Below, piece by piece: positions 6,791 to 58,882 of a stretch of 64,000 bases of DNA. Position 1 is the stretch's first letter. Every line of letters begins with the position of its first letter. The stretch is from positions 100,499-164,498 of the forward strand of contig CANGDR010000001.1 of NCBI GenBank assembly GCA_947452765.1, given 5' to 3'. The stretch is from Actinomycetota bacterium. Lineage in GTDB: Bacteria; Actinomycetota; Actinomycetes; S36-B12; UBA5976. The notes below the pieces were generated by a model that saw only the letters and a list, made by a program, of their open reading frames with translations, searched no databases and was not told the DNA's origin. The position numbers and the translations under genes were made by a program.

Positions 6791-6864
6791 CCTTTAGGAC
6801 TGTCCGAATTGGTAGTCTTAGCAGGTATTCACACTCCATGTGTGAATCCCAGGAGGCCCAAAAA

Positions 6865-22066: not shown

Positions 22067-23434
22067 TTAGTAGCGCTCAAAACCGCGGATTAGTTCAAAG
22101 TCCGTAATGGCTTTGTTGAATTGCGACAAATCAGTATCAACCATATGGGTGTAATGCTTATGCACGCGCTCGCCAAATGTTTCTTTAGCCCAAGTGCTAT
22201 TTACCCAAAGATCGCGGGCCATTTGTAGTGTATTTGGGACCCGATCCGTTTCTAATGCGTACGCATTGCCATCAAAGCGGGGCTCAAGTGTCATCTTCTT
22301 TTCGATGCCATCAATACCAGCAGCAATCATTCCAGCGACCGCTAAGTAAGGATTTACATCTCCACCTGGTACGCGGTTCTCAACGCGCAAACTTGGCCCA
22401 TGTCCGACCAATCGGTAAGAGCAGGTTCGGTTATCGCGTCCCCATTTGATTGCAGTCGGAGCAAAACTACCCGGCGCATAACGCTTGTAGCTATTTACAG
22501 TTGGCGCATACATAATGCTGAGTTCGCGCATATGTGCAAGTTGACCAGCAATGTATTGCTTGCCGATGTCACTTAAACCATCAGGATCATTATCGTCAAC
22601 TAGAACCATTGAGCCATCTGTGCCACGGAAAGATAAATGAATGTGGCATGAGTTACCTTCTCGCTCATTGAATTTAGCCATGAAAGTTAGGGCATAACCA
22701 TCCTGAGCAGCAATTTCTTTAGCGCCCGTCTTGTAGACCACGTGGTGATCACAAGTAGCCAAGGCATCTGTGTACTTGAATGCAATTTCGTGCTGGCCTA
22801 AATTGCATTCGCCTTTGACAGATTCAACAGTCATTCCTGCGTTCACCATTGACAACCGAATCCGTCTCAGGATTGGTTCTACGCGCGAAGTTCCGATGAT
22901 GCTGTAGTCAACGTTGTATTGGTTAACTGGAGTGAGCCCGTGGTACCGCTTATTCCAAGCTTCTTCGTAAGTGTCTTCAAACAAAATGAATTCAAGTTCG
23001 GTGCCAACCATGGCAACCATGCCCATGTCTTCCAAGCGCTTTAGTTGCTTTTGTAAAATCTGGCGCGGAGATTCTGGAATTGGATTGTCATTATGATCAA
23101 CCAGGTCAGCCAGTACTAGCGCAGTTCCTTCATGCCAATCGACGTAGCGCATTGTGCGAGGGTCAATTTTCATGACCATATCGCCGTACCCGGTATCCCA
23201 GCTTGAGATGTCGTAACCCTGAACCGTATTCATGTCGATGTCTACGGCCACGAGGTAGTTGCAGCCCTCAGTGCCGTGATTAAGAACATCAGTTAGAAAG
23301 TAGTCCCCGTGTAAACGCTTACCTTGGAGTCGACCCTGCATATCGGTAATGGCCACAATGACTGTGTCGATGCGACCTTCCTTGATGTCCTTAGTTAAGG
23401 CGTCAATGGATAGTGGGAAACTTACCGAGGTCAT
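22067..23434 (-). CDS. glutamine synthetase-like gamma-glutamyl-amine synthetase (GlnA3/GlnA4/PuuA-type)
   Basis: 455 aa; GS catalytic-domain motifs (NSCHIHLS, NRTCSYR, ENRVPGGDVNPYL); neighbours are ALDH, SDR and a PuuD-like hydrolase. Confidence 0.85.
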   Translation of the reverse strand: MTSVSFPLSIDALTKDIKEGRIDTVIVAITDMQGRLQGKRLHGDYFLTDVLNHGTEGCNYLVAVDIDMNTVQGYDISSWDTGYGDMVMKIDPRTMRYVDWHEGTALVLADLVDHNDNPIPESPRQILQKQLKRLEDMGMVAMVGTELEFILFEDTYEEAWNKRYHGLTPVNQYNVDYSIIGTSRVEPILRRIRLSMVNAGMTVESVKGECNLGQHEIAFKYTDALATCDHHVVYKTGAKEIAAQDGYALTFMAKFNEREGNSCHIHLSFRGTDGSMVLVDDNDPDGLSDIGKQYIAGQLAHMRELSIMYAPTVNSYKRYAPGSFAPTAIKWGRDNRTCSYRLVGHGPSLRVENRVPGGDVNPYLAVAGMIAAGIDGIEKKMTLEPRFDGNAYALETDRVPNTLQMARDLWVNSTWAKETFGERVHKHYTHMVDTDLSQFNKAITDFELIRGFERY

Positions 23435-23636: not shown

Positions 23637-25004
23637 ATGAGTAACACATTTGATGTGCTGAATCCAGCTACTGAAGAAGTAGTAAAGCAAGTACACATGG
23701 CATCTGCCGACGAAATCGATTCGGCCGTTGCCAAGGCCCAGGCTGCGTGGCCGGCCTGGCGCGACTTAGCACCGGGCACACGTGCAGATGTCCTTCGAAA
23801 GTTTGCGGCAATAGTTTCTGAACATAACGAGGAACTAGCAAAGCTCGAAGTTTTAGAAGCTGGTCACACAATAGGTAATGCGCGCTGGGAAGCACAAAAC
23901 GTAGCGAATGTTTTGAATTACATGGCTGGCGGCGTGGAGCGATTGCTCGGACATCAGATTCCAGTTCCTGGCGGCGTTGACATTACTTTCCATGAAGCGT
24001 TGGGAGTTGTTGGAATTATTGTGCCGTGGAATTTCCCGATGCCGGTTGCAGCTTGGGGATTTGCTCCAGCGCTCGCCGCAGGTAACACAGTAATTCTTAA
24101 GCCAGCGGAAACTACTCCGCTTACCGCACTTCGGTTGGCTGAACTCGCGCTCGAAGCTGGAATTCCAGAGCATGTATTCAATGTCGTTCCAGGATTCGGT
24201 AAAGAAGCCGGCCAACGAATCGTTGATCATCCAGCGATTCGAAAGATCTGCTTCACCGGCTCAACACCAGTCGGAACCCGCATCATGCAGGCAAGTGCAT
24301 CGCAACTTAAGCGAGTCACATTAGAACTTGGTGGCAAGAGCCCAACGATTATTTTTGCGGATGCCGATATTGAAAAGGCTGCAAAGTCGGCACCAGGCGC
24401 GGTATTTGATAATTCTGGTCAAGATTGCTGTGCGCGATCTCGTATCTTGGTTCAGCGCAGCGTCTATGACGAAGTACTTGCCTATATGGAGCCAATTGTT
24501 AAGGGTATGCATACTGGAAACCCAGCGGATGAATCTGTTGACATGGGACCCCTTATTAGTGCAGCGCAACGCGATCGAGTTAAATCGTTTGTTCCAGATG
24601 GCGCACCAATTCTCTTCCAGGGCGATGCTCCCACTGGAAAAGGCTTTTGGTTCCCACCAACAATTTTGGCCCCAATAACCGAGGCAGACATCCAGTACAA
24701 CCAAGAGATCTTTGGACCAGTTGCGGTTGTAATCCCATTCGACGACGAAGCGGACGCAATTCGCATGGCGAACGGAACCGACTATGGCTTAGCAGGATCG
24801 ATTTGGACTCGGGACGTAGGTCGCGCGATGCGAATGGCTCGTGGCGTGGATTCTGGAGTAATTTCCATTAACTCCCATTCTGCGGTCCGGTACTGGACCC
24901 CATTTGGTGGATTCAAGAAGTCAGGCATAGGCCGAGAGCTTGGTCCACATGCAATTGAGCATTTCACCGAAACCAAGAATGTATTTATTAGCACCGAAGA
25001 CTAA
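23637..25004 (+). CDS. NAD(P)-dependent aldehyde dehydrogenase (AldC/PuuC-like)
   Basis: 455 aa; ELGGKSP and catalytic-Cys region GQDCCARSR; divergent from the GS-like gene. Confidence 0.88.
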
Positions 25005-38095: not shown

Positions 38096-38863
38096 TTAGT
38101 GAATACCTTCGGCTGCTGCATATGAAGAATCATCTGCAGCACTCTTTAGGCGAGCGATCTTGTAAATTGTCAAGCCAAATAGACACTTGGCAAGTACGTC
38201 TGCAACGGTGTAGCCAATTTGGCGCCCAACGAATGCAGATGCTCCATCAAGACCCAAAACTGGCATCAAGTAGGAGATTGGGTAAACGCCCCAGGTAGCA
38301 ATAAGAAGCAGACGCAAGCGCTTTACGGTTGCGGATACTTCAGCTGGCTGCTTGTCAAGGGACTTGGTTAGCTCTACGAACAATACGTAAAGAATGAAGA
38401 GGAATGGAATTGTGGAAAGTGCGCCCCACAACATCTTCGGACCGTTTTCAGCAGCAACTTCACCTGGGTAACCAAGGATGATCATCAATGCTGAAGCTGG
38501 AACTAGACGAGAAACAAGTGATTTGCGTTCCGCAGTTGGAAGTGCAAGTACTGCAATTGTCTCAAGTAGCAATAGTGGAACAGTTAGTAACCAGTCCACG
38601 TAACGGTAAGCCTCGTTGAATGTTCCGGCGCCGCCGTGAGCTGCAACGAAAGAATCAAATATGCGCCAGTAGTGGTAAAGCGCGATTAAGGTTACTGTTC
38701 CTGAAATTGCAATTGCCTGGCGGTACTTTGGAAGTACCCGCGCCTGGCTGATGTACAAATAAACAGTTGTTGCAAGCATTGATGCAAAGCCCAATGAAAG
38801 CACGTTGTATACCGCAGAATATTGAGTTGCGGTAAGGGTTGTAACGTCATAGATTCCATCCAT
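38096..38863 (-). CDS. actinorhodopsin (xanthorhodopsin-like light-driven proton pump)
   Basis: 255 aa, 7 TM; RYVDWLLTVPLLLLE carries the D-T-E proton acceptor/donor triad; retinal Schiff-base lysine in ADVLAKCLFG; ATWGVYPISY helix F motif. Confidence 0.92.
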   Translation of the reverse strand: MDGIYDVTTLTATQYSAVYNVLSLGFASMLATTVYLYISQARVLPKYRQAIAISGTVTLIALYHYWRIFDSFVAAHGGAGTFNEAYRYVDWLLTVPLLLLETIAVLALPTAERKSLVSRLVPASALMIILGYPGEVAAENGPKMLWGALSTIPFLFILYVLFVELTKSLDKQPAEVSATVKRLRLLLIATWGVYPISYLMPVLGLDGASAFVGRQIGYTVADVLAKCLFGLTIYKIARLKSAADDSSYAAAEGIH

Positions 38864-39034: not shown

Positions 39035-40398
<1,364 letters not shown>

Positions 40399-42781: not shown

Positions 42782-43384
42782 GTGGTTGCTCAGTTCGTGC
42801 TTGCAACTCGGAATGCTCACAAAGCAGAAGAGTTGACGCGCATTTTGGAATCTTTTGATCTAGCCGTGGAATTAAAACTTGTTTCAGACTTTCCAGGAGC
42901 CCCTGAGGTGGAAGAAACTGAAGATTCATTTTCAGGAAATGCACTGTTAAAAGCACGGGCACTTTGTAGGTTCACTGGGCTGCCGGCGATTGCCGATGAC
43001 TCCGGAATTTGTGTAGATGCTTTAGGTGGAAATCCAGGCGTACTATCTGCGCGCTGGTCCGGCGCCACCGAAAATGTAGATACTTCAAATCTCGAATTGG
43101 TACTCCAGCAGACTGCAGATGTTCCTGAGGCTAAACGTGGAGCCCAATTCGTTTGCGCAGCCGTTGTAGTTTTCCCTGATGGCACCGAGTTGATTTCACA
43201 AGGAGAAATGCCAGGCAGGATTTTAATAGCGCCGCAAGGCAAAAATGGATTTGGCTATGATCCGATTTTTGTGCCAGTTGGATTTACTAAAACTACGGCA
43301 GAGATGACTTCAGCTGAGAAAGATTCAATCAGTCATCGCGGAATTGCACTGAGAAATTTAGCGGAACAACTCAAGGGGAAGTAA
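42782..43384 (+). CDS. rdgB: non-canonical purine NTP pyrophosphatase (RdgB/HAM1)
   Basis: 200 aa; ATRNAHKAEE, ADDSG, GFGYDPIF and SHRG motifs. Confidence 0.9.
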   Translation: MVAQFVLATRNAHKAEELTRILESFDLAVELKLVSDFPGAPEVEETEDSFSGNALLKARALCRFTGLPAIADDSGICVDALGGNPGVLSARWSGATENVDTSNLELVLQQTADVPEAKRGAQFVCAAVVVFPDGTELISQGEMPGRILIAPQGKNGFGYDPIFVPVGFTKTTAEMTSAEKDSISHRGIALRNLAEQLKGK

Positions 43385-46170
43385 TGGAATCAACGCAAGG
43401 TCGTAGGTCACTTTCAACTGGCCGAGTTGTATTCATTGTTATTGCAGCTGCCGCGCCGATGGCGGCGATGGTGGGAAACGTCCCGATCGGATTAATGTAT
43501 GGAAATGGAGCGGCACTTCCAGTCGCGTTTGTGATCGCCCTTGGAGTACTTCTGTGTTTCTCAATTGGGTACGCGCAAATGAGTCGCAGAGTTGTAAATT
43601 CTGGTGCTTTCTACACCTATGTAGCTCGAGCACTCGGTAAGCCGTTAGGAGTAGGAGCTGCTTACGTAGCGCTTACTGCATACACCGCGATGGCGATCGG
43701 CTTATCTGGCGGCTTTGGCTACTTCATGGAACAGCTGGTAGTTGGAGCAGGTGGACCAGACATCTCTTGGTTCGTATTTACCGGAATTGGCATTGTGGTT
43801 GTAGGGCTTCTCGGATTCCGCAGCATTGACTTATCTTCCAAAGTACTTGGCGTATTGATGGTTGCAGAGTTTGCAACTCTCACTTTGTTCGCTTTCCTGG
43901 TAATCGGATCAAAGCAATTGAGCGCTTTCCCGCTTGAATCTTTCAGCAGAGGTGAAATTACCTCAGGTCCAATCGGAATTGCCCTGATCATTGCTTTTAC
44001 AAGCTTCATTGGCTTTGAATCGGCTGCGCTTTATGGCGAGGAAACTAAGGATCCAGAACGAAGCATTCCGAAAGCTACATACATCGCTGTGTCGACCGTC
44101 GGAGTCTTTTATATTTTTATTAGCTGGGTCATTGTGGGAGCAGCTGGCGCAGCAAACGTGCGTGCAGATGCTGCAGCTGGTGGTGGGGAATTTGTCCTTA
44201 ATTTGATAAACCAGTACGGCGGTGAGCTCACATACAGTGTTGCAGCGGTATTTCTTTGCACTAGCGTTCTGGCAAGTTATTCAGCATTGCACAATGCTGC
44301 AAGCCGCTATTTGTTCGCGCTAGGGCGAGAGTCCATCATGCCCCAAATATTTGGTAAGTATCATCCTGAATTTTTCAGCCCACACATTGCCAGCATTGCC
44401 GTCACTTCAGTTACTACCCTGATTGCCACAGGATTTGCAATTAGTGGCGTTGATCCATACAAAACTTTTGCAGCGAGTTTTATTGGCATGGGAACGCTTG
44501 GTATTGTGGCCCTACAGGCTGCTGCATCATTGTCTGTGGTTGCGTTTTTCCGAAAGCGCCGTGATGGAAAAATCTGGCAAACAACAATTGCACCCTTAAT
44601 CGGATTCCTTGGGCTCACTAGTGCATTCTTCTTAGCGGCAACCAATTATGAAATCTTGACGGGTACAAATAACCAGCTGGTCAATGTAGCACCATATTCA
44701 CTTTTGCTAGTTGGGCTGATCGGTGTCATTAAGGGGCTACAGCTTCGCAAGAAGCAACCTGCAATTTATGCCCGACTCGCTTCCTCGCAGCTTCGGGGTA
44801 AGCGCCGAACAACTGAGGATCATCCAAAAATTAATTACACCCGAACTTATTGCTTAGTTGGCGCCGGCCCAGCCGGACTAGTTATGGCACGAGCGCTAAC
44901 CCATGAGGGAGTTAACTTTGAATGGTACGAGCGCCACAGTGATGTCGGTGGAATTTGGGATGTAGAAAATCCGGGATCACCAATGTACGAGAGCGCACAT
45001 TTCATTAGCTCTAAGTACACAAGTGGGTTCATTGGTCACCCAATGCCAACGAGCTACCCGGACTATCCGACGTGGCGGCAAATTCGTGATTACATTCGCA
45101 GCTTTGCCAGGACTTTTGGATTAATAGAAAAGGTTCAACTAAATACCGCCTTGGTGCGATCGACCCCTATTTCGAATGACCGTTGGGAAGTCGAGCTTTC
45201 CAACGGAACAGTGCGAGAGTTTGACGGGCTAATCGTTGCAACTGGAACTAACTGGCATGCGAATATTCCAGAATTCGAAGGTGTCAAAGAATTTAAAGGG
45301 ACCATTTCCCATTCTGTGGAATTCAAGGATGGCGAAGACTTAAAAGGTAAGCGTGTTCTAGTTGTTGGAGCGGGAAATTCGGGAGTCGATATTGCCTGTG
45401 ATGCTGCGCGAAATGCGGAAACTGCTTTCTTGTCGGTTCGACGCGGATATCGTTACATCCCTAAACATATTTTCGGTCTGCCAACTGATGCATTGCTGTC
45501 TGGATTAATTGATCCACCCAAGGGCGTCTCACTTGGCGGGGATGCCAACAAGCTCATTGATACATTGGTTGGGGACCTAACGCGACTAGGTTTGCCTGCC
45601 CCAGACCACGATGTTTTGTCTAGTCACCCAATTATGAATACCCAAGTGCTGCATCATTTGGCCCACGGAGATTTGATTGCAAAGTCCGACATTGAGCGCT
45701 TTACTCAGAGCGGCGTCGATTTCACTGATGGTTCGCACGAAGATATTGACCAGGTGATTTTGGCAACTGGCTATAACTACTCGGTACCGTTCCTAGATCC
45801 AAGTGCGGTGAATTGGACTAATGGCAGACCAGATCTTTATTTGCGACTATTTTCTAGGCAGTCACCAACGTTATTCTTCATCGGCTTCGCAGAATTTGCA
45901 GATGCAGCCTACAAAAGGTTTGAGGATATGGCGCAGTTGATTTTGATGGACATCAGGATGCGGGAAACTGGCGAACATTTTCCTGAATGGTCCGAAATGA
46001 AACGATCTGACAATCCTGATCTCTCGGGTGGACACGATTACATCGAAAGTAATCGCCACACCAACTACATTGATGTCACAACTTATCGTGAGTATTTATC
46101 CCAGTTAACGGATCAGTTTGAGTTCACGACGGTGGATGATGGAACTTATGCGGAAATGATTCGCAATTAG
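43384..46170 (+). CDS. fusion protein: APC-superfamily permease (N) + flavin-containing monooxygenase (C)
   Basis: 928-aa uninterrupted ORF. Residues ~1-470 are polytopic with the APC-like FIGFESAALYGEETKDPERSIPKA motif. Residues ~485-928 carry VGAGPAGL, DVGGIW, FKGTISHSVEF (FxGxxxHxxxF), VGAGNSGVD and LATGY. Confidence 0.8.
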   Translation: MESTQGRRSLSTGRVVFIVIAAAAPMAAMVGNVPIGLMYGNGAALPVAFVIALGVLLCFSIGYAQMSRRVVNSGAFYTYVARALGKPLGVGAAYVALTAYTAMAIGLSGGFGYFMEQLVVGAGGPDISWFVFTGIGIVVVGLLGFRSIDLSSKVLGVLMVAEFATLTLFAFLVIGSKQLSAFPLESFSRGEITSGPIGIALIIAFTSFIGFESAALYGEETKDPERSIPKATYIAVSTVGVFYIFISWVIVGAAGAANVRADAAAGGGEFVLNLINQYGGELTYSVAAVFLCTSVLASYSALHNAASRYLFALGRESIMPQIFGKYHPEFFSPHIASIAVTSVTTLIATGFAISGVDPYKTFAASFIGMGTLGIVALQAAASLSVVAFFRKRRDGKIWQTTIAPLIGFLGLTSAFFLAATNYEILTGTNNQLVNVAPYSLLLVGLIGVIKGLQLRKKQPAIYARLASSQLRGKRRTTEDHPKINYTRTYCLVGAGPAGLVMARALTHEGVNFEWYERHSDVGGIWDVENPGSPMYESAHFISSKYTSGFIGHPMPTSYPDYPTWRQIRDYIRSFARTFGLIEKVQLNTALVRSTPISNDRWEVELSNGTVREFDGLIVATGTNWHANIPEFEGVKEFKGTISHSVEFKDGEDLKGKRVLVVGAGNSGVDIACDAARNAETAFLSVRRGYRYIPKHIFGLPTDALLSGLIDPPKGVSLGGDANKLIDTLVGDLTRLGLPAPDHDVLSSHPIMNTQVLHHLAHGDLIAKSDIERFTQSGVDFTDGSHEDIDQVILATGYNYSVPFLDPSAVNWTNGRPDLYLRLFSRQSPTLFFIGFAEFADAAYKRFEDMAQLILMDIRMRETGEHFPEWSEMKRSDNPDLSGGHDYIESNRHTNYIDVTTYREYLSQLTDQFEFTTVDDGTYAEMIRN

Positions 46171-47046
46171 CTAGTCGTCTTCGGTAAGAACCCAAGTGTC
46201 GCCAACTTGTCGAGCGATTCCTCGTTTCTCAAGATCTTTTAGATATTTAACGTGCCCTCGGTTGCCACGACCCCGGAAGAGCGGCATCAATTTTGGCAAA
46301 GCGTTTGGAGCGAGCATCGCGCCACGTACCAACCAAGATTCACTTGGCTTTGGATAGCGCTCGAATTTTGGTTTATCCAGCATCTTGTTGAAGCTTTTAA
46401 CAACTGCATCTGTTTTTTGTGGCGGATCCATAAACTGCAATGAATTGCCACCTTCGACTGCCTCTCGGTGCAACATCGGAGTGTCTGTGGCAGACGGCAT
46501 TACGGCTCCCATAGTGATGCCTTTAGCGGCAAGGTCCATACCAATCGAAAGTATCGCGCCGCGTAAACCGAATTTAGACGCCGTATACATAGGCGTTTCA
46601 CCAAGCGGAAAAATGCCTCCGAGTGAAACGGTAGCGATAACTCTCGGATCCTTGGATTTATGAAGCAATGGGATCGCTTGGCGAATTAGCACGAGCGGGG
46701 AAACCAAGTTGATGTCGAGTTCGAGCTCGATACTTTCGACCGATCGTACGTCAAATCGATCTGTAGTAGTGATTGCCGCATTGGGAATTAAGACATCGAT
46801 TCGGCCATACTTATTTTCAATTTCCTGAATTACAGACTTTATTATTTGCCGATCAGTTAAGTCTCCTGAAAGCGCAGTGTGACTTCCAGCTGGCAAACTT
46901 GAAACCAGTGCTTCGACCCGTTCTTTATTTAGATCTATGGCAACGATGTTTGCGCCTTTTTTTGCAAAGTCGCGAGCCAGGTGCGAGCCGATACCGCCAG
47001 CTCCACCAGTAATTACAATTACTTGATCTTTAAAGTCATAAACCAT
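46171..47046 (-). CDS. SDR-family oxidoreductase
   Basis: 291 aa; TGGAGGIG, NAA(I), YTASK; its stop codon abuts the stop of the convergent fusion gene (TAGCTA). Confidence 0.8.
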   Translation of the reverse strand: MVYDFKDQVIVITGGAGGIGSHLARDFAKKGANIVAIDLNKERVEALVSSLPAGSHTALSGDLTDRQIIKSVIQEIENKYGRIDVLIPNAAITTTDRFDVRSVESIELELDINLVSPLVLIRQAIPLLHKSKDPRVIATVSLGGIFPLGETPMYTASKFGLRGAILSIGMDLAAKGITMGAVMPSATDTPMLHREAVEGGNSLQFMDPPQKTDAVVKSFNKMLDKPKFERYPKPSESWLVRGAMLAPNALPKLMPLFRGRGNRGHVKYLKDLEKRGIARQVGDTWVLTEDD

Positions 47047-54019: not shown

Positions 54020-55495
54020 CTAACGCATTACAAATGGATCTGAGATCGGTGCTTCGGACGTATTAATCCAAACTGACTTGGTTCGGGTGTAATCCAGTAT
54101 TGATTCTGCGCCAGCTTCGCGACCAGTGCCACTTTGACCGTAGCCACCAAATGGCACAAGCGGTGAAATCATTCGGTAAGTGTTAACCCAAACAATTCCA
54201 GCTCGAATTGAACGTACAAATCGATGAGCCCGACCTAAGTTTTGCGTGAATACTCCGGATGCCAGTCCGTATTCACTGTCATTAGCCAGGAGCAATGCTT
54301 CGGCATCATCTTTAAATTTCAAAACACTTAATACTGGACCAAAAATCTCTTCGGCAACGCACGCGGTTGAACTGATTTCACAATCCAAAATGGTTGGTTC
54401 GTAGTAAAAACCGGCCTCGAATTCGGCAGGTGATTTTCCACCTGTTAGAAGTTTCGCGCCAGAAGCAACACTTCGCGTCACAACGTCGTTGACATGATCA
54501 AGTTGACGTTGGGTGGCTAGCGGACCCATTTCTGTTTCTAGGTCTTGTGGATCGCCGATCTTAATTCGCTGTGCTTTTGAAACCAAAATTTCCATGAGTT
54601 TCGCGTGCACACTTTCATGAACTATTAAGCGTGAACCTGCAACACAGCTCTGACCAGTGGCAGCAAAAATTCCCGACACGATGGCGTTAGCGGCGCTTTC
54701 TAAATCTGCGTCTTCAAATACCAGTACTGGTGATTTGCCACCGAGTTCAAGTGAGACTAGCGCCAAGTTTTGTGCTGAATTTTCCACAATCCGGCGCGCA
54801 GTTGATGGCCCACCAGTGAATGCAATTCTCGAAACTAATCGGTGACTCGTTAGCGCCTTGCCACAAGTTTCGCCCATGCCCGTAATTACATTGACTACGC
54901 CAGGTGGGAACCCAGCTTCGTTAATAAGTTGGGCAAGTTTAAGAAGTGGTGCCGGACCATCCTCAGATGCTTTTAAAACAACGGTGCAGCCCGCAGCAAG
55001 GGCTGGAGCTAGTTTGACTGCACTTAAAAAGATTTGGGAATTCCACGGAACTATTGCGGCAACCACGCCAATTGGTTCGCGGCGAGTGTATGCCTCCATG
55101 TCTGGCTTATCTACATCAAAGTGGGCGCCCTGTACTTTGTCAGCCAGCCCAGCAAAGTATCGATAGTAATCTGCGATGTAGAGAATCACTGCTTTCGTTT
55201 CGCGGCGGATCTTGCCAGTATCTTTAGTTTCCAGTTCTGCCAATGCATCAGCATTGGACGCAACTAGGTCAGCAAGTTTGTAAAGTAATTTTCCGCGTTG
55301 CGTCGCAGTTAAGTTAGCCCATGCTGGGTTGCTAAGTGCATTATGTGCGGCCAAAACTGCACGGTCTACATCGGCGACACTTGCGGATGGCATTAGTGCC
55401 CAGGCTTTTCCGTCGGCCGGGTTAATACTTTCGAAAGTCTCGCTGGCATCTTCGAACGAACCGTCGATGTATTGCTGGAACTTTTCAAGTGCCAT
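54020..55495 (-). CDS. NAD(P)-dependent aldehyde dehydrogenase
   Basis: 491 aa; ELGGKSP and catalytic GQSCVAGSR motifs. Confidence 0.88.
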   Translation of the reverse strand: MALEKFQQYIDGSFEDASETFESINPADGKAWALMPSASVADVDRAVLAAHNALSNPAWANLTATQRGKLLYKLADLVASNADALAELETKDTGKIRRETKAVILYIADYYRYFAGLADKVQGAHFDVDKPDMEAYTRREPIGVVAAIVPWNSQIFLSAVKLAPALAAGCTVVLKASEDGPAPLLKLAQLINEAGFPPGVVNVITGMGETCGKALTSHRLVSRIAFTGGPSTARRIVENSAQNLALVSLELGGKSPVLVFEDADLESAANAIVSGIFAATGQSCVAGSRLIVHESVHAKLMEILVSKAQRIKIGDPQDLETEMGPLATQRQLDHVNDVVTRSVASGAKLLTGGKSPAEFEAGFYYEPTILDCEISSTACVAEEIFGPVLSVLKFKDDAEALLLANDSEYGLASGVFTQNLGRAHRFVRSIRAGIVWVNTYRMISPLVPFGGYGQSGTGREAGAESILDYTRTKSVWINTSEAPISDPFVMR

Positions 55496-55509
55496 TACGA
55501 CTCCCGGAA

Positions 55510-56550
55510 TTAGTTAGCGAATGCTGGCATCACTTTATCAATGAATAACTTAAGGCTCTTATGCTTTTGCTCATAAGTCATTGCGCTATCTAGCCAAATA
55601 CTGAATTGGTCGTAGCCAAGTTCTTCAAACTTCTTTAACCTTGCAATAACTTCATCAGGTGTTCCTACCAGCAAGTTTTTGCGCAGGACCTCTGGTGAAT
55701 ACTGTGGCGATCCTTCATATTCCTCTGTGGTTAAGGCTTCGATTTGGGCATTAACTATGGGAGCCTCGCGCTTAAACCATTTTGTGAAATAAAGGAAGAA
55801 TTTCTGCAATGCTTCAGATCCTGATTGAAGTTCTGCTTCAGTTTCTGCAACGTAGGTGTGCATTAGCAACATGACTTCAGGCCGTGGAACTTCTGGATGA
55901 TTTGCAACCGCAGTATTGAATTTATTCATTAAGTCGGCGACTTCATCATCACCTATTGCAAGTGGCGTTACTTGAACATGGCAGCCCGAAGCAACGGCAA
56001 AGTCATGGGTATGGGGATCCCGAGCCGCAATCCAAATTGGCGGTCCAGGTTTTTGGATTGGAAATGGAACCGGGGTAGTACTTGGGAACTGCCAGTATTC
56101 GCCGTCATGTGTGTAGTTGCCCTTAAAGAGTCCCTGAATCGCAGGCACCAATTCACGCATTCGAAGACCGGCTTCGAGCGCTTCAAGTCCAGGCATCATG
56201 CGTTCGTACTCAAACATATACGCACCGCGGGCAATGCCAAGATCAAGTCGACCGTTACTTAGTACGTCGCACATACCGGCTTCGCCAGCTAACCGAATCG
56301 GATGCCAAAACGGGGCAATTACATTGCCAGTGCCTAGACGGATAGTCGAAGTCTTAGCTGCCAAGTAACTTAAGTTGATAAATGGGTTTGGGGCAACCGT
56401 GAAATCCATTGCATGATGTTCGCCGATCCATATGGTTTCCATACCGCCGGCTTCAGCCATCAAAGTGAACTCAGTTAGTTCGTCCAGTAGCTGTTTATGT
56501 GAAAATTCATCGCCATAACGTTCGGCATGCGCAAATAGAGAAAATTTCAT
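55510..56550 (-). CDS. luciferase-like (LLM-class) flavin-dependent monooxygenase/oxidoreductase
   Basis: 346 aa; MKFSLFAH..., TIWIGEHH, TIRLGTG typical LLM N-terminal half. Confidence 0.85.
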   Translation of the reverse strand: MKFSLFAHAERYGDEFSHKQLLDELTEFTLMAEAGGMETIWIGEHHAMDFTVAPNPFINLSYLAAKTSTIRLGTGNVIAPFWHPIRLAGEAGMCDVLSNGRLDLGIARGAYMFEYERMMPGLEALEAGLRMRELVPAIQGLFKGNYTHDGEYWQFPSTTPVPFPIQKPGPPIWIAARDPHTHDFAVASGCHVQVTPLAIGDDEVADLMNKFNTAVANHPEVPRPEVMLLMHTYVAETEAELQSGSEALQKFFLYFTKWFKREAPIVNAQIEALTTEEYEGSPQYSPEVLRKNLLVGTPDEVIARLKKFEELGYDQFSIWLDSAMTYEQKHKSLKLFIDKVMPAFAN

Positions 56551-56565
56551 GAGTCTATTCTCGCC

Positions 56566-57399
56566 TTAATCCGTGATCGGTGCGACGGAATTAATGAAGT
56601 CTCGTATGGCATCGCTCACATAAGTTGGCGCCGTCAAGGTCATCATGTGGCGCTCGCCCGAAAGTACTGCCCAGTGCGAATTTGGAACAAGTGCGGCCAT
56701 GGCCTCAGACATGGCCGGGGTTGAATTTGGGTCAAGTTCGCCCGTGAAGAAAAGAGCCGGAACTGGTAAGTGCTGCAAACTATGTGAATGTATTTCGTCA
56801 GCGTTCGCGAAGACTTGGTATGCGGCTGCGTATCCTGCAGGGTTGACAGACTCTAAAAGTTTGCGCGCCAATTCTTCGGCATGTCCATGTGGGTGCGTTC
56901 CAGTTGTTCCAAACCAACGCTCTAAAGTCTCGGTGATGTTTACCGTCACATTTCCGTCGGCCAAATCCTGGGCACGTTTTTGAACCGCTATACGTTGCTC
57001 GGACGTGCGCTGGAAAACCGAATTCAACGCGCTAACGGATAAACAGCGTGTCGAATGGCTAGTGGCAAAATCCAAAGCAATCAAACCACCCATTGAGTGC
57101 CCGGCGAGGTGCACCTCTTCTATTTCTAGTTCGTTAAGTAAATCAAGTAGCTGGCTGGTGTAATCGGAAAGATCCAAATCGCGATTGGGTAACAGACTTT
57201 CACCGTGACCCCACATGTCGTAAGTCAGGATTTCGAAGTGGGTATCAAGTTCAGCTATCTCTGGTTTCCAAACATGCTGGTTCATACCGACACCGTGTAG
57301 CAGAACTAATGTTGGTCCTTCGCCATAGCGACTCCACGATGTTCCATTTTCGGTGATCCCAGAAGATTTTGGAGCTGGGAGCGAGAGATCAACTGACAT
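56566..57399 (-). CDS. alpha/beta-fold hydrolase
   Basis: 277 aa; HGVGMN oxyanion region, nucleophile elbow GHSMGG, C-terminal His (GERHM). Confidence 0.85.
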   Translation of the reverse strand: MSVDLSLPAPKSSGITENGTSWSRYGEGPTLVLLHGVGMNQHVWKPEIAELDTHFEILTYDMWGHGESLLPNRDLDLSDYTSQLLDLLNELEIEEVHLAGHSMGGLIALDFATSHSTRCLSVSALNSVFQRTSEQRIAVQKRAQDLADGNVTVNITETLERWFGTTGTHPHGHAEELARKLLESVNPAGYAAAYQVFANADEIHSHSLQHLPVPALFFTGELDPNSTPAMSEAMAALVPNSHWAVLSGERHMMTLTAPTYVSDAIRDFINSVAPITD

Positions 57400-58096: not shown

Positions 58097-58882
58097 ATGC
58101 GCTTAGGTTTTGTTGGTGTCGGAGCAATTTCGGAGGCGGTCATCGAGGCCCTACTGACCGGGCCAAATGCAGCTGACATAGAAGTTGTACTCTCACCCCG
58201 CAATGCCGAACGCAGCGCTAAATTGGCTGCTAAATATTCAAAAGCATCGATTGGATCAAGTAATCAAAACGTTCTGGACCAATCAGATGTTGTTTTTATG
58301 GGCGTTCTCCCTGGCCAAATGAACGACGTCTGCGCTGACTTGATGTTTCGCGCGGACCACACCGTAGTTAGCTTGATTGCAGGAATGCCTCCGTCAACTG
58401 TTGCGGGTATTGTCAGCCCAGCAACCGAAGTAGTGCAGATGATTCCGCTTCCAGTGATCGCAATGCATGCCGGACCCCTTGTGATTTGCCCAGGCAATAC
58501 AGCAATGGTGAAGTTATTTGAAGGCTGCGGCGAAATTGTTGTCCTTAATGATGAGGCACACATATTTATATTGAGTTGTACTTCGGCTGCGATGTCCACC
58601 TTCTTTGAATACCAAAACACTGTGATTAATTGGTCTGCAAGTGCTGGGCTTCCAAATGATATTGCGCACAAGTATGCGACCTCACTATTTAAGGGGCTTG
58701 CCACTGAGGCAATGGCAACACCATTCGCCCACCTTCCCGAAATGCCGCGTGAGCATGAAACTCCAGGCGGACTTAATGAACATATCCGAACGTCATTAAT
58801 TAAGGCGGGAATGTTCGATGAGGTCACAAAACAACTAGAACATATTTATGTGACTCGTAATCGCACTAAAAAGTCCGATTAA
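58097..58882 (+). CDS. pyrroline-5-carboxylate reductase-like NAD(P)-binding oxidoreductase
   Basis: 261 aa; Rossmann start LGFVGVGAISEA and C-terminal TPGGLNE motif resembling ProC. Confidence 0.6.
   Translation: MRLGFVGVGAISEAVIEALLTGPNAADIEVVLSPRNAERSAKLAAKYSKASIGSSNQNVLDQSDVVFMGVLPGQMNDVCADLMFRADHTVVSLIAGMPPSTVAGIVSPATEVVQMIPLPVIAMHAGPLVICPGNTAMVKLFEGCGEIVVLNDEAHIFILSCTSAAMSTFFEYQNTVINWSASAGLPNDIAHKYATSLFKGLATEAMATPFAHLPEMPREHETPGGLNEHIRTSLIKAGMFDEVTKQLEHIYVTRNRTKKSD

What the first reader, a model, noticed from the sequence alone, without database searches (positions are those of the whole stretch)
43384..46170. Single-polypeptide fusion of an APC-family permease with a complete flavin-containing monooxygenase
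A 928-codon ORF has no internal stop or obvious frameshift. The N-terminal ~470 aa is a ~12-TM APC-type amino acid/polyamine permease with the motif FIGFESAALYGEETKDPERSIPKA. After a basic linker (LQLRKKQ...RGKRRTTEDHPK), the C-terminal ~440 aa carries every class-B FMO hallmark in the canonical order. These are FAD GxGxxG (VGAGPAGL, ~44858), DVGGIW and the FMO-identifying FxGxxxHxxxF (FKGTISHSVEF, 45292-45324). They are followed by NADPH GxGxxG (VGAGNSGVD) and ATGY (LATGYNY). With 12 TMs the C-terminus is cytoplasmic, so the imported substrate would be handed directly to an NADPH/O2-dependent N- or S-oxygenase, a physical coupling of uptake and oxygenation. I know of no characterised transporter-FMO fusion. 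The FMO motif spacing resembles bacterial trimethylamine monooxygenase (Tmm), which makes small methylated amines or polyamines plausible substrates. This is interesting given the amine-catabolic genes elsewhere in the window. The start overlaps the rdgB stop (TAATG), and the stop abuts the stop of a convergent SDR gene (TAGCTA).
Basis: partly seen in the sequence, partly recalled or inferred. Interest (0 to 1): 0.7.

Follow-up and report, generated by a model that had tools for sequence, protein, structure and literature searches.

The report
Amino-acid-type permease fused to flavin monooxygenase
One gene really does encode a membrane importer joined to an oxygen-inserting flavin enzyme; this uncharacterised fusion is conserved in hundreds of bacterial species, usually beside a partner dehydrogenase, and suggests that uptake of a nutrient is physically tied to its first oxidation.

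Summary
Window 43384-46170 (+) is an intact 928-codon gene: a 12-helix APC-type permease (aa 12-457), a basic linker of fixed length, then a complete class B flavin monooxygenase (aa 488-928).

It is not an assembly artefact. The same single-frame architecture occurs in 323 species-representative genomes. The best 80 are 58 Actinomycetota, 19 Proteobacteria and 3 other labels, at 47-84% identity. The two halves co-evolve, and AlphaFold gives pTM 0.83.

The Tmm/methylamine idea is not supported. The FMO half is closest to DiatB/SCO7468 (an amino-acid N-oxygenase forming aldoximes) and to animal FMO5. It belongs to an uncharacterised bacterial clade in which the near-universal flavin-site Asn is an invariant Ile.

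A new point is the partner gene. An NAD-type SDR lies directly next to the fusion in about 60% of loci, in three gene orders. Other alcohol/carbonyl dehydrogenases or esterases replace it elsewhere. Relatives of the FMO are themselves fused to this SDR type or to an α/β-hydrolase.

The best reading is import of an amine-bearing alcohol or ketone, followed by dehydrogenation and Baeyer-Villiger-type oxygenation. N-oxygenation is the main rival. The substrate is unknown, and I found no paper describing the architecture.

The parts
43384..46170 (+). Whole gene: APC permease-FMO fusion, 928 aa plus stop
   Evidence: ORF. Both Pfam domains. Full-length orthologues. AlphaFold pLDDT 87, pTM 0.83.
43417..44754 (+). 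APC-type permease domain (aa 12-457), 12 membrane helices
   Evidence: PF13520 and PF00324 above their cut-offs. Helix pattern from the AlphaFold model. Distant match to xCT, LAT and AdiC structures.
43441..43479 (+). TM1 motif IAAAAPMAAMVGN (aa 20-32); replaces the usual G-[ST]-G-I-F substrate-site motif
   Evidence: Invariant A21-A24, P25, A27, A28, G31. Aligned to xCT 'GTIIGAGIF'. Shared with stand-alone permeases of the same subfamily.
44005..44070 (+). TM6 and following loop, FIGFESAALYGEETKDPERSIP (aa 208-229): the APC signature region
   Evidence: F208, G210-A214, L216, Y217, E219, E220, P224 are invariant in 89 sequences. Conserved in stand-alone relatives.
44737..44847 (+). End of TM12 plus the basic cytoplasmic linker (aa 452-488)
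   Evidence: Linker length is fixed at 28-31 aa in 70 orthologues, and aa 455-488 hold 10 K/R in 34 residues. P459, Y462, A466, R471, Y485 are invariant. pLDDT is lower here, 69-76.
44845..46167 (+). Class B flavin-containing monooxygenase domain (aa 488-928)
   Evidence: PF00743 at 1.7e-51. PDB DiatB 1e-65 and AncFMO5 2e-53. Foldseek TM 0.84 to DiatB. 34% identity to the SCO7468 orthologue over 427 aa.
44860..44877 (+). FAD-binding GxGxxG (GAGPAG, aa 493-498)
   Evidence: Position. G493, G495, P496 invariant.
44986..45018 (+). Flavin-site segment YESAHFISSKY (aa 535-545); the dyad is F540-I541 where other FMOs have x-Asn
   Evidence: Gap-free alignment to DiatB 'YRTLHLNTAKQ' and AncFMO5 'YKSVIINTSKE'. 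H539, F540, I541, S542, S543 invariant. Role of the dyad from PMC10682829. The same motif occurs in the related FMO clade.
45292..45324 (+). FMO-identifying motif FxGxxxHxxxF (FKGTISHSVEF, aa 637-647)
   Evidence: Position. G639 and H643 invariant.
45367..45384 (+). NAD(P)H-binding GxGxxG (GAGNSG, aa 662-667)
   Evidence: Position. G662, G664, N665, S666, G667 invariant.
45601..45639 (+). PDHDVLSSHPIMN (aa 740-752); H742 aligns with the FMO5-lineage His (tAncFMO H275), and H748-P749 with AncFMO5 'QHP'
   Evidence: Alignment to 6sek. P740, D741, H742, H748, P749 invariant. Meaning of H275 from PMC9950137. Clade-wide 'SHPxxN' motif.
45763..45774 (+). ATGY motif (aa 794-797)
   Evidence: Position. 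A794, T795, G796, Y797 invariant.
46048..46062 (+). SNRHT (aa 889-893); H892 aligns with AncFMO5 'DSQRHT' His (tAncFMO H426)
   Evidence: Alignment to 6sek. R891 invariant and H892 at least 90% conserved. Meaning from PMC9950137.
46171..47046 (-). Partner gene: classical NAD-type short-chain dehydrogenase/reductase (291 aa), convergent, with zero intergenic bases
   Evidence: adh_short 1e-42. An SDR of this subfamily is adjacent to the fusion in 47 loci, 38 of the 64 that have enough flank, plus L021 and L042. The same subfamily is fused to FMO relatives. Ser and Tyr-x3-Lys are kept, and Asp/Glu ends β2 in 41 of 47.
42782..43384 (+). Upstream rdgB/Ham1 gene whose stop overlaps the fusion's start codon; the link is lineage-specific, not functional
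   Evidence: Ham1p_like 1.5e-62. TAATG overlap. murI-rph-rdgB precede the fusion only in the 7 closest loci.

Best explanation
**What it is.** The gene encodes a real bifunctional membrane protein.

**What is shown**
- The N-terminal half is an intact member of an uncharacterised APC (amino acid/polyamine/organocation) permease subfamily.
- The C-terminal half is a complete FAD/NAD(P)H class B flavin monooxygenase on the cytoplasmic face.
- The two are joined by a short basic linker of fixed length.
- The protein works with an adjacent NAD-type short-chain dehydrogenase.

**What is inferred**
- The permease imports an amine-bearing small molecule that carries a secondary alcohol or ketone group.
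- The dehydrogenase interconverts alcohol and ketone.
- The tethered FMO uses NADPH and O2 to insert oxygen next to the carbonyl (Baeyer-Villiger type), giving an ester.
- The ester is split by an esterase, encoded nearby in some genomes, or breaks down on its own.
- Tethering the oxygenase to the importer captures the substrate as it enters and makes uptake effectively irreversible.

**How sure I am of each layer**
- Real, conserved, functional fusion: about 0.95.
- Functional partnership with the SDR or an equivalent dehydrogenase: about 0.8.
- Baeyer-Villiger chemistry rather than heteroatom oxygenation: about 0.45.
- The substrate itself is unknown.
For: **The fusion is real and conserved**
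- At least 120 clusters (at 90% identity) hold full-length 900-959 aa proteins with both Pfam domains, at 57-84% identity.
- 323 matches in GTDB species genomes. The best 80 all cover aa ~2-927 in one frame, in 58 Actinomycetota, 19 Proteobacteria and 3 other labels.
- Mean column identity is 70%, with invariant residues in both halves and in the linker.
- Pairwise identities of the two halves correlate at r = 0.84, and the linker is 28-31 aa throughout.
- AlphaFold gives pLDDT 87 and pTM 0.83 for the whole chain.

**The permease is intact**
- Its TM1, TM6 and TM8 motifs are shared with about 30 stand-alone permease representatives at 35-52% identity.

**The dehydrogenase partnership**
- An SDR lies within 63 bp of the fusion, or overlaps it, in 47 loci. 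That is 38 of the 64 loci with at least 1 kb on both sides.
- It occurs in three gene orders: 19 convergent, 19 co-directional downstream, 9 co-directional upstream. L021 and L042 add two more.
- Where the SDR is missing, another enzyme sits directly adjacent on the same strand:
  - aldo-keto reductase (L017, L018);
  - Gfo/Idh/MocA oxidoreductase (L024, L025, L054);
  - β-hydroxyacid dehydrogenase (L050, L053);
  - extended SDR (L036);
  - esterase (L057, L064, L067).
- Relatives of the FMO half are fused to adh_short (P0278, P0321), to an extended SDR (P0288) and to an α/β-hydrolase (P0350).
- Those fused SDR domains score 240-242 bits on the HMM of fusion-adjacent SDRs. Unrelated SDRs in the same loci score 140 bits or less.

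**Esterase link**
- In Streptomyces the order is TetR | fusion | SDR | penicillin-amidase-family hydrolase | Abhydrolase_3 esterase.
- The closest stand-alone FMO (P0250) lies 19 bp after an α/β-hydrolase gene.

**Active-site hints**
- Two histidines, together with a hydrophobic residue at position 60, install Baeyer-Villiger activity in ancestral FMOs (PMC9950137).
- They align with invariant H742 and with H892, which is at least 90% conserved. Position 60/61 is Phe, or Leu in relatives.

**Cofactor**
- Asp/Glu at the end of β2 in 41 of 47 partner SDRs points to NAD+ and so to the oxidative direction. The rule itself is from my own knowledge of SDR classification.
Against: - No substrate, activity or transport has been measured for any member.
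- The Asn at position 62, whose mutation abolished activity in mFMO, is Ile here. The way the peroxyflavin is handled is therefore unknown, and the enzyme could do something unconventional.
- The same paper stresses that no fixed residue set predicts FMO chemistry.
- APC permeases carry amino acids, amines and organocations.
- The two closest characterised bacterial relatives are N-oxygenases: DiatB/SCO7468 and LbmA-Ox.
- Class-III aminotransferase and aldehyde dehydrogenase genes lie near some members. These fit amine chemistry as well as, or better than, ester chemistry.
- About 40% of loci with adequate flanks have no classical SDR adjacent, and some have no recognisable partner at all.
- If the imported form is the alcohol, the SDR must act before the FMO. 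That weakens the idea of a direct permease-to-FMO hand-off.
Confidence: 0.5

Rival explanations
1. Import-coupled N-oxygenation. The permease brings in an amino acid or primary/secondary amine. The tethered FMO hydroxylates its nitrogen, giving a hydroxylamine, oxime/aldoxime or N-oxide, as DiatB/SCO7468 and LbmA-Ox do. The adjacent SDR, AKR or other dehydrogenase then handles the aldehyde or ketone released from the oxime.
For: - The closest solved and characterised relative is DiatB, the SCO7468 orthologue (E 1e-65, TM 0.84, 34% identity).
- SCO7468 N-hydroxylates tryptophan-type amino acids twice to give aldoximes (PMC3617294).
- LbmA-Ox, an oxime-forming PKS domain crystallised with ethyl glycinate, is also a good match.
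- The fused transporter belongs to the amino acid/polyamine/organocation superfamily.
- A class-III aminotransferase lies near the fusion in five proteobacterial loci.
- The FMO-SDR fusion P0278 sits in an Aldedh/Aminotran_3/Aldedh/DAO cluster beside a PotABCD-like ABC importer.
Against: - The two DiatB residues that its depositors mutated, N57 and R360, are I541 and E837 in the fusion family, both invariant.
- The family's 'H-F/L-I-S-S-K' and 'S-H-P' motifs are absent from SCO7468/DiatB.
- Esterase and α/β-hydrolase partners and fusions have no obvious role after N-oxygenation.
- No aldoxime dehydratase or nitrilase was seen in the neighbourhoods examined.
Confidence: 0.3
2. The FMO half is a Tmm-like trimethylamine/dimethylamine (or polyamine) monooxygenase fed directly by the permease.
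For: - The domain has generic class B FMO motifs.
- A Puu-like gene pair lies about 20 kb away in the window.
Against: - The NCBIfam Tmm equivalog scores 92 bits against a cut-off of 675.
- Tmm and mFMO structures match only the N-terminal ~190 residues, at E 1e-14 to 1e-17, with TM 0.62-0.64. DiatB reaches 0.84.
- The Asn essential in mFMO is Ile here.
- Trimethylamine is not a known APC substrate (own knowledge).
- The conserved SDR and esterase partners are left unexplained.
Confidence: 0.05
3. The permease half no longer transports anything. It serves as a membrane anchor or ligand sensor for an FMO that acts on membrane-soluble substrates, as the membrane-bound animal FMOs do.
For: - Clade I animal FMOs, among the best matches, are membrane-bound enzymes (PMC7948450 abstract).
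- The canonical TM1 G-[ST]-G motif is absent.
- Partner genes resemble those of ketone or alkane sub-terminal oxidation (own knowledge).
Against: - The strongest conservation in the N-half falls on the TM1, TM3, TM6 and TM8 substrate-site segments.
- The same unusual motifs occur in many stand-alone permeases of the subfamily, which are presumably working transporters.
- A simple anchor would not need 12 helices held at a mean 54% identity across phyla.
Confidence: 0.1
4. Artefact: two neighbouring genes were joined by a sequencing or assembly indel in this metagenome-assembled genome.
For: The source is a MAG. One relative, L072, does show a frameshift inside the gene.
Against: - The identical protein is found on 9 contigs from NCBI, ENA and Logan assemblies.
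- The single-frame architecture occurs in isolate genomes, including Streptomyces humidus JCM 4386, S. shenzhenensis DSM 42034, Rhizobium aquaticum DSM 29780, R. wuzhouense W44, Solimonas marina C16B3 and Amycolatopsis rhizosphaerae.
- The linker has conserved residues and a constant length.
Confidence: 0.01

Closest known systems
DiatB / SCO7468 (Streptomyces FMO of 5-dimethylallylindole-3-acetonitrile biosynthesis; PDB 8z12-8z17)
   Same: - Best sequence and fold match to the FMO half: E 1e-65, 34% identity over 427 aa, Foldseek TM 0.84.
- Same FAD, NADPH, FxGxxxH and ATGY/TGF motifs.
- Both have the 'PDH' histidine.
- It acts on an amino acid, a typical APC-type substrate.
   Different: - It is a soluble stand-alone 432-aa enzyme encoded beside a prenyltransferase.
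- It has Asn57 and Arg360 where the fusion family has invariant Ile541 and Glu837.
- It lacks the 'SHP' and 'RH' histidines.
Animal FMO5 (ancestral FMO5, PDB 6sek), the Baeyer-Villiger member of clade I FMOs
   Same: - Full-length match: E 2e-53, TM 0.72.
- It shares the histidines equivalent to tAncFMO H275 and H426, and the 'QHP/SHP' motif.
- It has a hydrophobic residue at dyad position 61.
- It is membrane-associated.
   Different: - FMO5 is anchored by its own C-terminal helix, not fused to a transporter.
- It keeps Asn62.
- It has Ile rather than Phe at position 61.
Bacterial Baeyer-Villiger gene sets such as cyclohexanol dehydrogenase ChnA (SDR) + cyclohexanone monooxygenase ChnB + lactone hydrolase ChnC, or MekA/MekB (from my own knowledge, not tested here)
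   Same: The recurrent gene set is the same: a dehydrogenase, a class B flavin monooxygenase, an esterase or α/β-hydrolase, and a local regulator.
   Different: - Those monooxygenases are type I BVMOs with the FxGxxxHxxxW fingerprint, and they are soluble.
- Here the enzyme is FMO-type and fused to an importer.
- The type I BVMO structures match only the first ~200 residues.
Transport-coupled enzymes: vectorial acylation by FATP/FadD, the Aas-LplT pair, PTS group translocation (own knowledge)
   Same: The concept is the same: an enzyme is tied to a transporter so that the substrate is chemically trapped on entry.
   Different: - The folds and the chemistry are different.
- None of them uses a flavin monooxygenase or an APC permease.
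- No chemical modification during transport is shown here.
APC precursor/product antiporters (AdiC, CadB, PotE, GadC) and SLC7 transporters (xCT, LAT1)
   Same: - Same fold family: Pfam AA_permease_2, with 12 helices.
- xCT is the best solved match, at E 2e-13.
- Antiport of substrate against product is a conceivable mode.
   Different: - The relationship is only distant.
- The TM1 G-[ST]-G-I-F motif is replaced by AAAAP-x-AA.
- No NCBIfam transporter model reaches its cut-off; the best, TIGR00909, scores 86 against 557.

Membership tests
Class B flavin-containing monooxygenase (Pfam PF00743 FMO-like) | Profile score above the curated cut-off over most of the domain | tested here: met
   175.7 bits against a cut-off of 22, aa 490-842.
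Class B flavin-containing monooxygenase (Pfam PF00743 FMO-like) | Two dinucleotide-binding GxGxxG motifs plus the FxGxxxHxxx[YF] motif in canonical order | tested here: met
   GAGPAG 493-498, FKGTISHSVEF 637-647, GAGNSG 662-667. The key residues are invariant in 89 orthologues.
Class B flavin-containing monooxygenase (Pfam PF00743 FMO-like) | Asn (Gln in clade IV and NMOs) at dyad position 62 above the flavin, thought to stabilise the C4a-(hydro)peroxyflavin | tested here: not met
   Ile541 aligns with DiatB N57 and AncFMO5 N62 without gaps and is invariant. PMC10682829 reports Asn as predominant, with only sparse Thr, His or Val.
Class B flavin-containing monooxygenase (Pfam PF00743 FMO-like) | Two-Rossmann-domain FMO fold | tested here: met
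   Foldseek E 1e-28, TM 0.84 to DiatB, and 0.68-0.72 to the ancestral mammalian FMOs.
Trimethylamine monooxygenase Tmm (NCBIfam NF058570) | Equivalog model score at or above the cut-off | tested here: not met
   92 bits against 675; only aa 490-678 align.
ArsO family flavin monooxygenase (NCBIfam NF040505) | Equivalog model score at or above the cut-off | tested here: not met
   124 bits against 425, with a partial match at aa 491-696.
Type I Baeyer-Villiger monooxygenases (PAMO/CHMO type) | Full-length similarity and the FxGxxxHxxxW[P/D] fingerprint (the fingerprint is from my own knowledge) | tested here: not met
   The motif ends in Phe, not Trp. PAMO, CHMO and steroid monooxygenase chains match only aa ~490-695, at E 1e-11 to 1e-18.
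DiatB/SCO7468-type amino-acid aldoxime synthase | Conservation of the residues probed in the solved structures (N57, R360) and linkage to an indole prenyltransferase gene | tested here: not met
   N57 corresponds to I541 and R360 to E837. No Trp_DMAT gene lies beside the fusion, whereas one lies beside P0138. The roles of N57 and R360 are inferred only from their being mutated; I could not read a paper on DiatB.
N-hydroxylating monooxygenases (Lys/Orn, PF13434) | Full-length profile match | tested here: inconclusive
   28 bits against a cut-off of 21.3, but only profile positions 131-216 of 339 match. This overlaps the much stronger FMO-like hit.
APC superfamily permease (Pfam PF13520 / PF00324) | Profile scores above the cut-offs across about 12 helices, with TM1 and TM6 broken | tested here: met
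   93 bits against 27 and 66 bits against 24.6. Helix pattern from the model.
APC superfamily permease (Pfam PF13520 / PF00324) | TM1 G-[ST]-G-I-F substrate-site motif of well-studied members | tested here: not met
   AAAAPMAAMVG aligns with xCT GTIIGAGIF. The variant motif is typical of a whole subfamily.
Any named APC subfamily in NCBIfam (TIGR00909, BcaP, YjeH, LAT, CadB, GabP...) | Model score at or above the cut-off | tested here: not met
   The best is TIGR00909, at 86 bits against 556.8.
Baeyer-Villiger-competent clade I FMO (FMO5-like residue network I60/H275/H426 of PMC9950137) | Ile/Leu at 60/61 plus the two histidines | tested here: inconclusive
   H742 and H892 are present and conserved. 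Position 61 is Phe in the fusion family and Leu in many clade relatives. The residue numbering was matched by my own count on the HMMER alignment.
Transport activity of the N-terminal half; oxygenase activity of the C-terminal half | Measured uptake and measured NADPH/O2-dependent turnover | not testable with these tools
   No experimental data exist for any member in the sources searched.

The most novel reading that the evidence does not exclude
The fusion is a new kind of group-translocation-like device. The substrate would leave the inward-facing cavity of the APC permease straight into the active-site tunnel of the tethered FMO and be oxygenated before it ever equilibrates with the cytoplasm. 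NADPH and O2, rather than ion gradients alone, would then make uptake irreversible. This would be carried out by an FMO clade that runs peroxyflavin chemistry without the canonical Asn. Given its prevalence in abundant freshwater Nanopelagicales-type Actinomycetota, it would define an unrecognised route for turnover of a common dissolved nitrogenous compound.
Probability: 0.2. Interest if true: 0.85.

Novelty: new variant of a known kind. Interest (0 to 1): 0.62.

Why it matters
- **A new architecture.** Enzyme-transporter fusions that tie uptake to the first chemical step are rare, and none involving a flavin monooxygenase has been described in the literature I could search.
- **A natural experiment.** This one is a conserved protein family present in hundreds of species across at least two phyla. 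They include streamlined freshwater Actinomycetota that dominate lake bacterioplankton, and cultivable Streptomyces, Rhizobium and Solimonas strains in which it can be tested.
- **An unexplored enzyme clade.** The finding exposes a large, uncharacterised bacterial FMO clade (stand-alone, SDR-fused, hydrolase-fused and permease-fused) that lacks the flavin-site Asn regarded as near-universal. This bears on the open question of what decides N/S-oxygenation versus Baeyer-Villiger chemistry in FMOs.
- **Practical value.** Public databases annotate the family only as 'amino acid permease', so its oxygenase half is hidden from metabolic reconstructions. The conserved TetR-SDR-fusion unit offers a direct experimental route to the unknown substrate.

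Tried and rejected
- **PDB codes in the literature.** Searches for 8Z12-8Z17 found nothing relevant. A search for 'DiatB' returned only unrelated papers.
- **Permease + FMO + fusion searches.** Two searches returned nothing relevant. Two FMO phylogeny and review papers contain no mention of permease, transporter or fusion.
- **Identifying 8z12.** A full database search returned only generic names. Its identity came instead from gene context and PMC3617294 and from the Foldseek entry titles.
- **The afdb50 fold library** was unavailable.
- **Names of the closest relatives.** Public names for the closest stand-alone and alternatively fused relatives were uninformative.
- **SDR family.** NCBIfam gave no specific family for the partner SDRs; all scored below the cut-offs.
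- **Triple fusions.** Suspected permease-FMO-SDR fusions in L042 and L021 were rejected: the SDR is in another reading frame.
- **Long 'fusion' ORFs.** ORFs of 1000-1700 aa in high-GC loci are upstream extensions produced by my simple ORF caller, not extra domains.
- **Unfused pairs.** I looked at the closest stand-alone halves for permease + FMO gene pairs. P0250 has no permease beside it, and P0247 and P0252 have no FMO beside them.
- **Other neighbours.** Several neighbours of SDR-less loci had no Pfam match or unrelated functions such as TPR, IMPDH and PGM.
- **One failed call.** One Pfam call failed on wrong coordinates.
- **Neighbours considered and set aside as incidental.**
  - murI-rph-rdgB upstream, present only in the closest lineage.
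  - CMAS + FAD_binding_4 genes upstream in some Actinomycetota, probably an unrelated lipid-methylation pair.

Full report
**1.

Window 43384..46170 (+) is a single ATG-initiated ORF of 928 codons. Pfam finds AA_permease_2 over aa 12-442 and FMO-like over aa 490-842, both far above their curated cut-offs.

The FMO motif FKGTISHSVEF falls exactly at nt 45292-45324. The start codon overlaps the stop of the upstream Ham1/rdgB gene (TAATG). The TAG stop touches the stop of a convergent SDR gene (TAG|CTA).

The AlphaFold model has mean pLDDT 87 and pTM 0.83. It shows twelve membrane helices, with TM1 and TM6 broken as in the APC fold, followed by the two-Rossmann FMO fold. The N-terminus and the linker are basic: the linker has 10 K/R in 34 residues. 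This fits an N-in/C-in topology, and a cytoplasmic location is what an NADPH-dependent enzyme needs.

**2. It is a real, conserved fusion and not an assembly accident**

- The identical protein is carried by nine contigs from independent assemblies. One is a 162-kb contig of a freshwater MAG (GCA_947455085.1) that also encodes an actinorhodopsin.
- A search of about 5.8 billion proteins returned at least 120 clusters of full-length (900-959 aa) proteins with both domains, at 57-84% identity.
- A scan of one genome per GTDB species found 323 encoding stretches. The best 80 all cover residues ~2-927 in one frame.
- Those 80 come from three groups:
  - 58 Actinomycetota, including Nanopelagicales, Streptomyces, Amycolatopsis, Actinocorallia, Nocardioidaceae, Pseudonocardia and Kineosporiaceae;
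  - 19 Proteobacteria, including Rhizobium, Caulobacteraceae, Phenylobacterium, Rhizomicrobium, Acetobacteraceae, Solimonas, Nevskia and Steroidobacteraceae;
  - three with other labels.
- Several are isolate genomes.
- In alignments of 26 and 89 sequences, both halves and the linker contain invariant residues.
- The linker is 28-31 aa in all 70 full-length orthologues. Pairwise identities of the two halves correlate at r = 0.84, so the protein evolves as one unit.
- One relative (L072) carries a frameshift, which shows what a broken copy looks like.
- At 50% clustering the fusion collapses to two representative clusters. It is therefore one family of probably single origin.

**3. The permease half**

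- It is only distantly related to solved APC transporters: xCT is best at E 2e-13, followed by y+LAT, GkApcT, CAT, LAT1 and AdiC.
- It reaches no NCBIfam subfamily cut-off.
- The usual TM1 motif G-[ST]-G-I-F is replaced by an invariant AAAAP-x-AA-x-x-G.
- The TM6 segment F-x-G-F-E-S-A-A-L-Y-G-E-E and a TM8 segment are also invariant.
- The same unusual motifs occur in about 30 stand-alone permease representatives at 35-52% identity.

The fused domain is therefore an intact member of an uncharacterised APC subfamily, not a decayed anchor.

**4. The FMO half is not Tmm-like**

| Comparison | Result |
|---|---|
| NCBIfam Tmm equivalog | 92 bits against a cut-off of 675 |
| Tmm and mFMO structures | match only aa ~489-680, E 1e-14 to 1e-17, TM 0.62-0.64 |
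| PDB 8z12-8z17 'DiatB' (best match) | E 1e-65, TM 0.84 |
| Ancestral mammalian FMO5 | E 2e-53 |
| FMO2, FMO3-6 and FMO1 | E 1e-46 to 8e-41 |
| LbmA-Ox, oxime-forming PKS domain | E 3e-44 |

DiatB is 91% identical to a Streptomyces violaceoruber protein that sits beside a Trp_DMAT prenyltransferase, which makes it the SCO7468 orthologue. Ozaki et al. showed that SCO7468 N-hydroxylates 5-dimethylallyl-L-tryptophan and L-tryptophan twice, giving aldoximes (PMC3617294). The window's FMO half is 34% identical to it over 427 residues.

**5. An unusual active site that defines a clade**

Nicoll/Mascotti and colleagues describe a two-residue dyad above the flavin, Ile61 and Asn62 in AncFMO5. [quoted passage not shown] Position 61 is Leu or Ile in all Baeyer-Villiger-performing FMOs (PMC10682829).

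- In gap-free alignments the fusion family has Phe540-Ile541 at these positions, both invariant.
- The DiatB depositors mutated N57 (8z16) and R360 (8z17). These align with I541 and with invariant E837. The residue count is mine, made on the alignment.
- The motif H-(F/L)-I-S-S-(K/R) and a second motif S-H-P-x-x-N are shared by about 40 representatives of close relatives, but not by SCO7468.
- Bailleul et al. showed that T60I, N275H and N426H together install Baeyer-Villiger activity in an ancestral N/S-oxygenating FMO (PMC9950137).
- By my count, the two histidines align with invariant H742 ('PDH') and with H892 ('RH', at least 90% conserved).

This resembles the Baeyer-Villiger-competent constellation. 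It is not proof, because the same authors stress that no fixed residue set predicts FMO chemistry.

**6. The conserved partner is the main new finding**

I called ORFs in the 80 loci plus the window, clustered them by BLASTP and built HMMs.

- An SDR of about 270-295 aa lies within 63 bp of the fusion gene, or overlaps it, in 47 loci. That is 38 of the 64 loci with at least 1 kb of flank on both sides.
- Two more (L021, L042) were recognised later.
- There are three gene orders:
  - convergent, as in the window (19 loci, freshwater lineages);
  - co-directional downstream with overlapping stop and start (19 loci; Streptomyces, Rhizobium and others);
  - co-directional upstream (9 loci; Rhizomicrobium, Caulobacteraceae, Solimonas, Nevskia, Steroidobacteraceae).
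- A divergent TetR gene commonly precedes the unit.
- Where the classical SDR is missing, another enzyme often sits directly adjacent on the same strand:
  - aldo-keto reductase (L017, L018);
  - Gfo/Idh/MocA oxidoreductase (L024, L025, L054);
  - β-hydroxyacid dehydrogenase (L050, L053);
  - extended SDR (L036);
  - esterase (L057, L064, L067);
  - luciferase-like monooxygenase (L019).

There is independent fusion evidence as well. The exhaustive profile search found relatives of the FMO half fused at their C-terminus to adh_short (P0278, P0321), to an extended SDR (P0288) and to an α/β-hydrolase (P0350). The fused SDR domains score 240-242 bits on the HMM of fusion-adjacent SDRs. Unrelated SDRs in the same loci score 140 bits or less.

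Further context points the same way:
- In Streptomyces sp. GESEQ-35 the order is TetR | fusion | SDR | penicillin-amidase-family hydrolase | Abhydrolase_3 esterase.
- The closest stand-alone FMO (P0250) lies 19 bp after an α/β-hydrolase gene, with a TetR gene nearby.
- The partner SDRs keep the Ser and Tyr-x3-Lys catalytic residues.
- They carry Asp/Glu at the end of β2 in 41 of 47 cases. By the usual SDR rule, which I take from my own knowledge, this indicates NAD+ and oxidative use.

**7. The most likely mechanism**

*Shown:*
- an intact APC-type permease covalently tied to a complete class B FMO on the cytoplasmic side;
- a conserved genetic partnership with an alcohol/carbonyl dehydrogenase, and often with an esterase and a TetR regulator.

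*Inferred:* the recurrent set of dehydrogenase, flavin monooxygenase and esterase is the classic layout of Baeyer-Villiger catabolic routes: alcohol to ketone to ester to acid plus alcohol. Combined with the FMO5-like histidines, this makes a Baeyer-Villiger-type oxygenation of an imported amine-bearing alcohol or ketone the best single reading. I give it about 0.45.

*Speculation:* the invariant Glu837, where DiatB has Arg360, would suit a cationic amino group rather than a carboxylate.

*Main rival (about 0.3):* N-oxygenation of an imported amino acid or amine, as in DiatB/SCO7468 and LbmA-Ox, with the dehydrogenase handling the released carbonyl.
- For it: the nature of APC substrates; class-III aminotransferases near five proteobacterial loci; and the amine-catabolic setting of the FMO-SDR fusion P0278, which lies among Aldedh, Aminotran_3, Aldedh and DAO genes beside a PotABCD-like importer.
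- Against it: the loss of DiatB's N57 and R360 equivalents, and the unexplained esterases.

*Minor alternatives:* the permease could act as a substrate/product antiporter, or it could be a mere anchor. Its conservation pattern argues against the anchor idea.

**8. Comparison with what is known, and novelty**

The protein is a member of the APC superfamily and of the class B FMOs by profile, motifs and fold. It fails the membership tests for Tmm, ArsO, type I BVMOs, DiatB-type aldoxime synthases and every named APC subfamily. It also lacks the FMO dyad Asn.

Public sources call it 'amino acid permease' or 'CzcO/amino acid transporter'. No paper describing a permease-FMO fusion or this FMO clade was found in six searches and two targeted readings. 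That library is incomplete, so absence there is not proof.

I rate it a new variant of known kinds: known domains in an undescribed, conserved architecture, with an atypical active site and a defined partner.

**9. Limits**

- No biochemical data exist for any member.
- The neighbourhood census uses my own crude ORF calling. High-GC loci are noisy, and only the best 80 of the 323 loci were available.
- Residue equivalences to tAncFMO numbering rest on my counting in HMMER alignments.
The high pTM is only indirect support for a fixed arrangement.

Noticed in passing
window 44998-45006 (aa 539-541, H-F-I): The flavin-site Asn regarded as near-universal in FMOs is an invariant Ile. This holds in the fusion family and in a whole clade of stand-alone, SDR-fused and hydrolase-fused bacterial FMOs.
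   Followed up: yes
window 45892-45894 (aa 837, Glu): Invariant Glu837 aligns with DiatB Arg360, the residue mutated in PDB 8z17. The charge reversal might mean a cationic rather than a carboxylate substrate group. The role of R360 is only guessed from its having been mutated.
   Followed up: partly
window 54020-57399 (-) and 58097-58882 (+): An operon of aldehyde dehydrogenase, luciferase-like monooxygenase and α/β-hydrolase, followed by an F420-dependent NADP oxidoreductase-like gene. A luciferase-like monooxygenase also lies directly downstream of the fusion gene in locus L019, so a link is conceivable.
   Followed up: no
window 22067-23434 (-) and 23637-25004 (+): A glutamine-synthetase-like gene next to an aldehyde dehydrogenase, reminiscent of the γ-glutamylation (Puu) route of polyamine catabolism. 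It lies about 20 kb from the fusion.
   Followed up: partly
window 38096-38863 (-): A bacteriorhodopsin-family gene (actinorhodopsin type). It fits a freshwater photoheterotrophic Actinomycetota genome.
   Followed up: no
window 6838-11697 (+): A very large (1619 aa) NAD-specific glutamate dehydrogenase with ACT and helical-motif domains.
   Followed up: no
window 39448-40395 (-) and neighbours (ThiS-like and JAB genes seen in L081 5652-7292): PALP enzyme + ThiS-like carrier + JAB protease. This looks like the actinobacterial CysO/CysM/Mec sulfur-carrier route to cysteine (from my own knowledge).
   Followed up: no
window 46168-46173: The fusion gene and the convergent SDR gene share no intergenic base (TAG|CTA). 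Any transcription terminator must therefore lie inside the opposite coding region.
   Followed up: no
L072 7995-10814: In a Caulobacteraceae MAG the fusion gene is split by a frameshift, and the FMO part continues in another frame. This is either a pseudogene or an assembly error.
   Followed up: partly
L053 6403-7455: A homocysteine S-methyltransferase gene directly follows the fusion gene in a Streptomycetales MAG. In E. coli such an enzyme pairs with the APC permease MmuP for S-methylmethionine (own knowledge). This is a single case.
   Followed up: no
P0319 (991 aa) and P0327 (4928 aa): Relatives of the FMO half also occur as a tandem FMO-FMO protein and at the C-terminus of a megasynthase-sized protein.
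   Followed up: partly
L086 6001-9528: A close stand-alone permease of the same subfamily (Streptomyces sp. TLI_235) is followed 16 bp later by a 674-aa AMP-binding enzyme. This may be another transporter-enzyme pairing in the subfamily.
   Followed up: no
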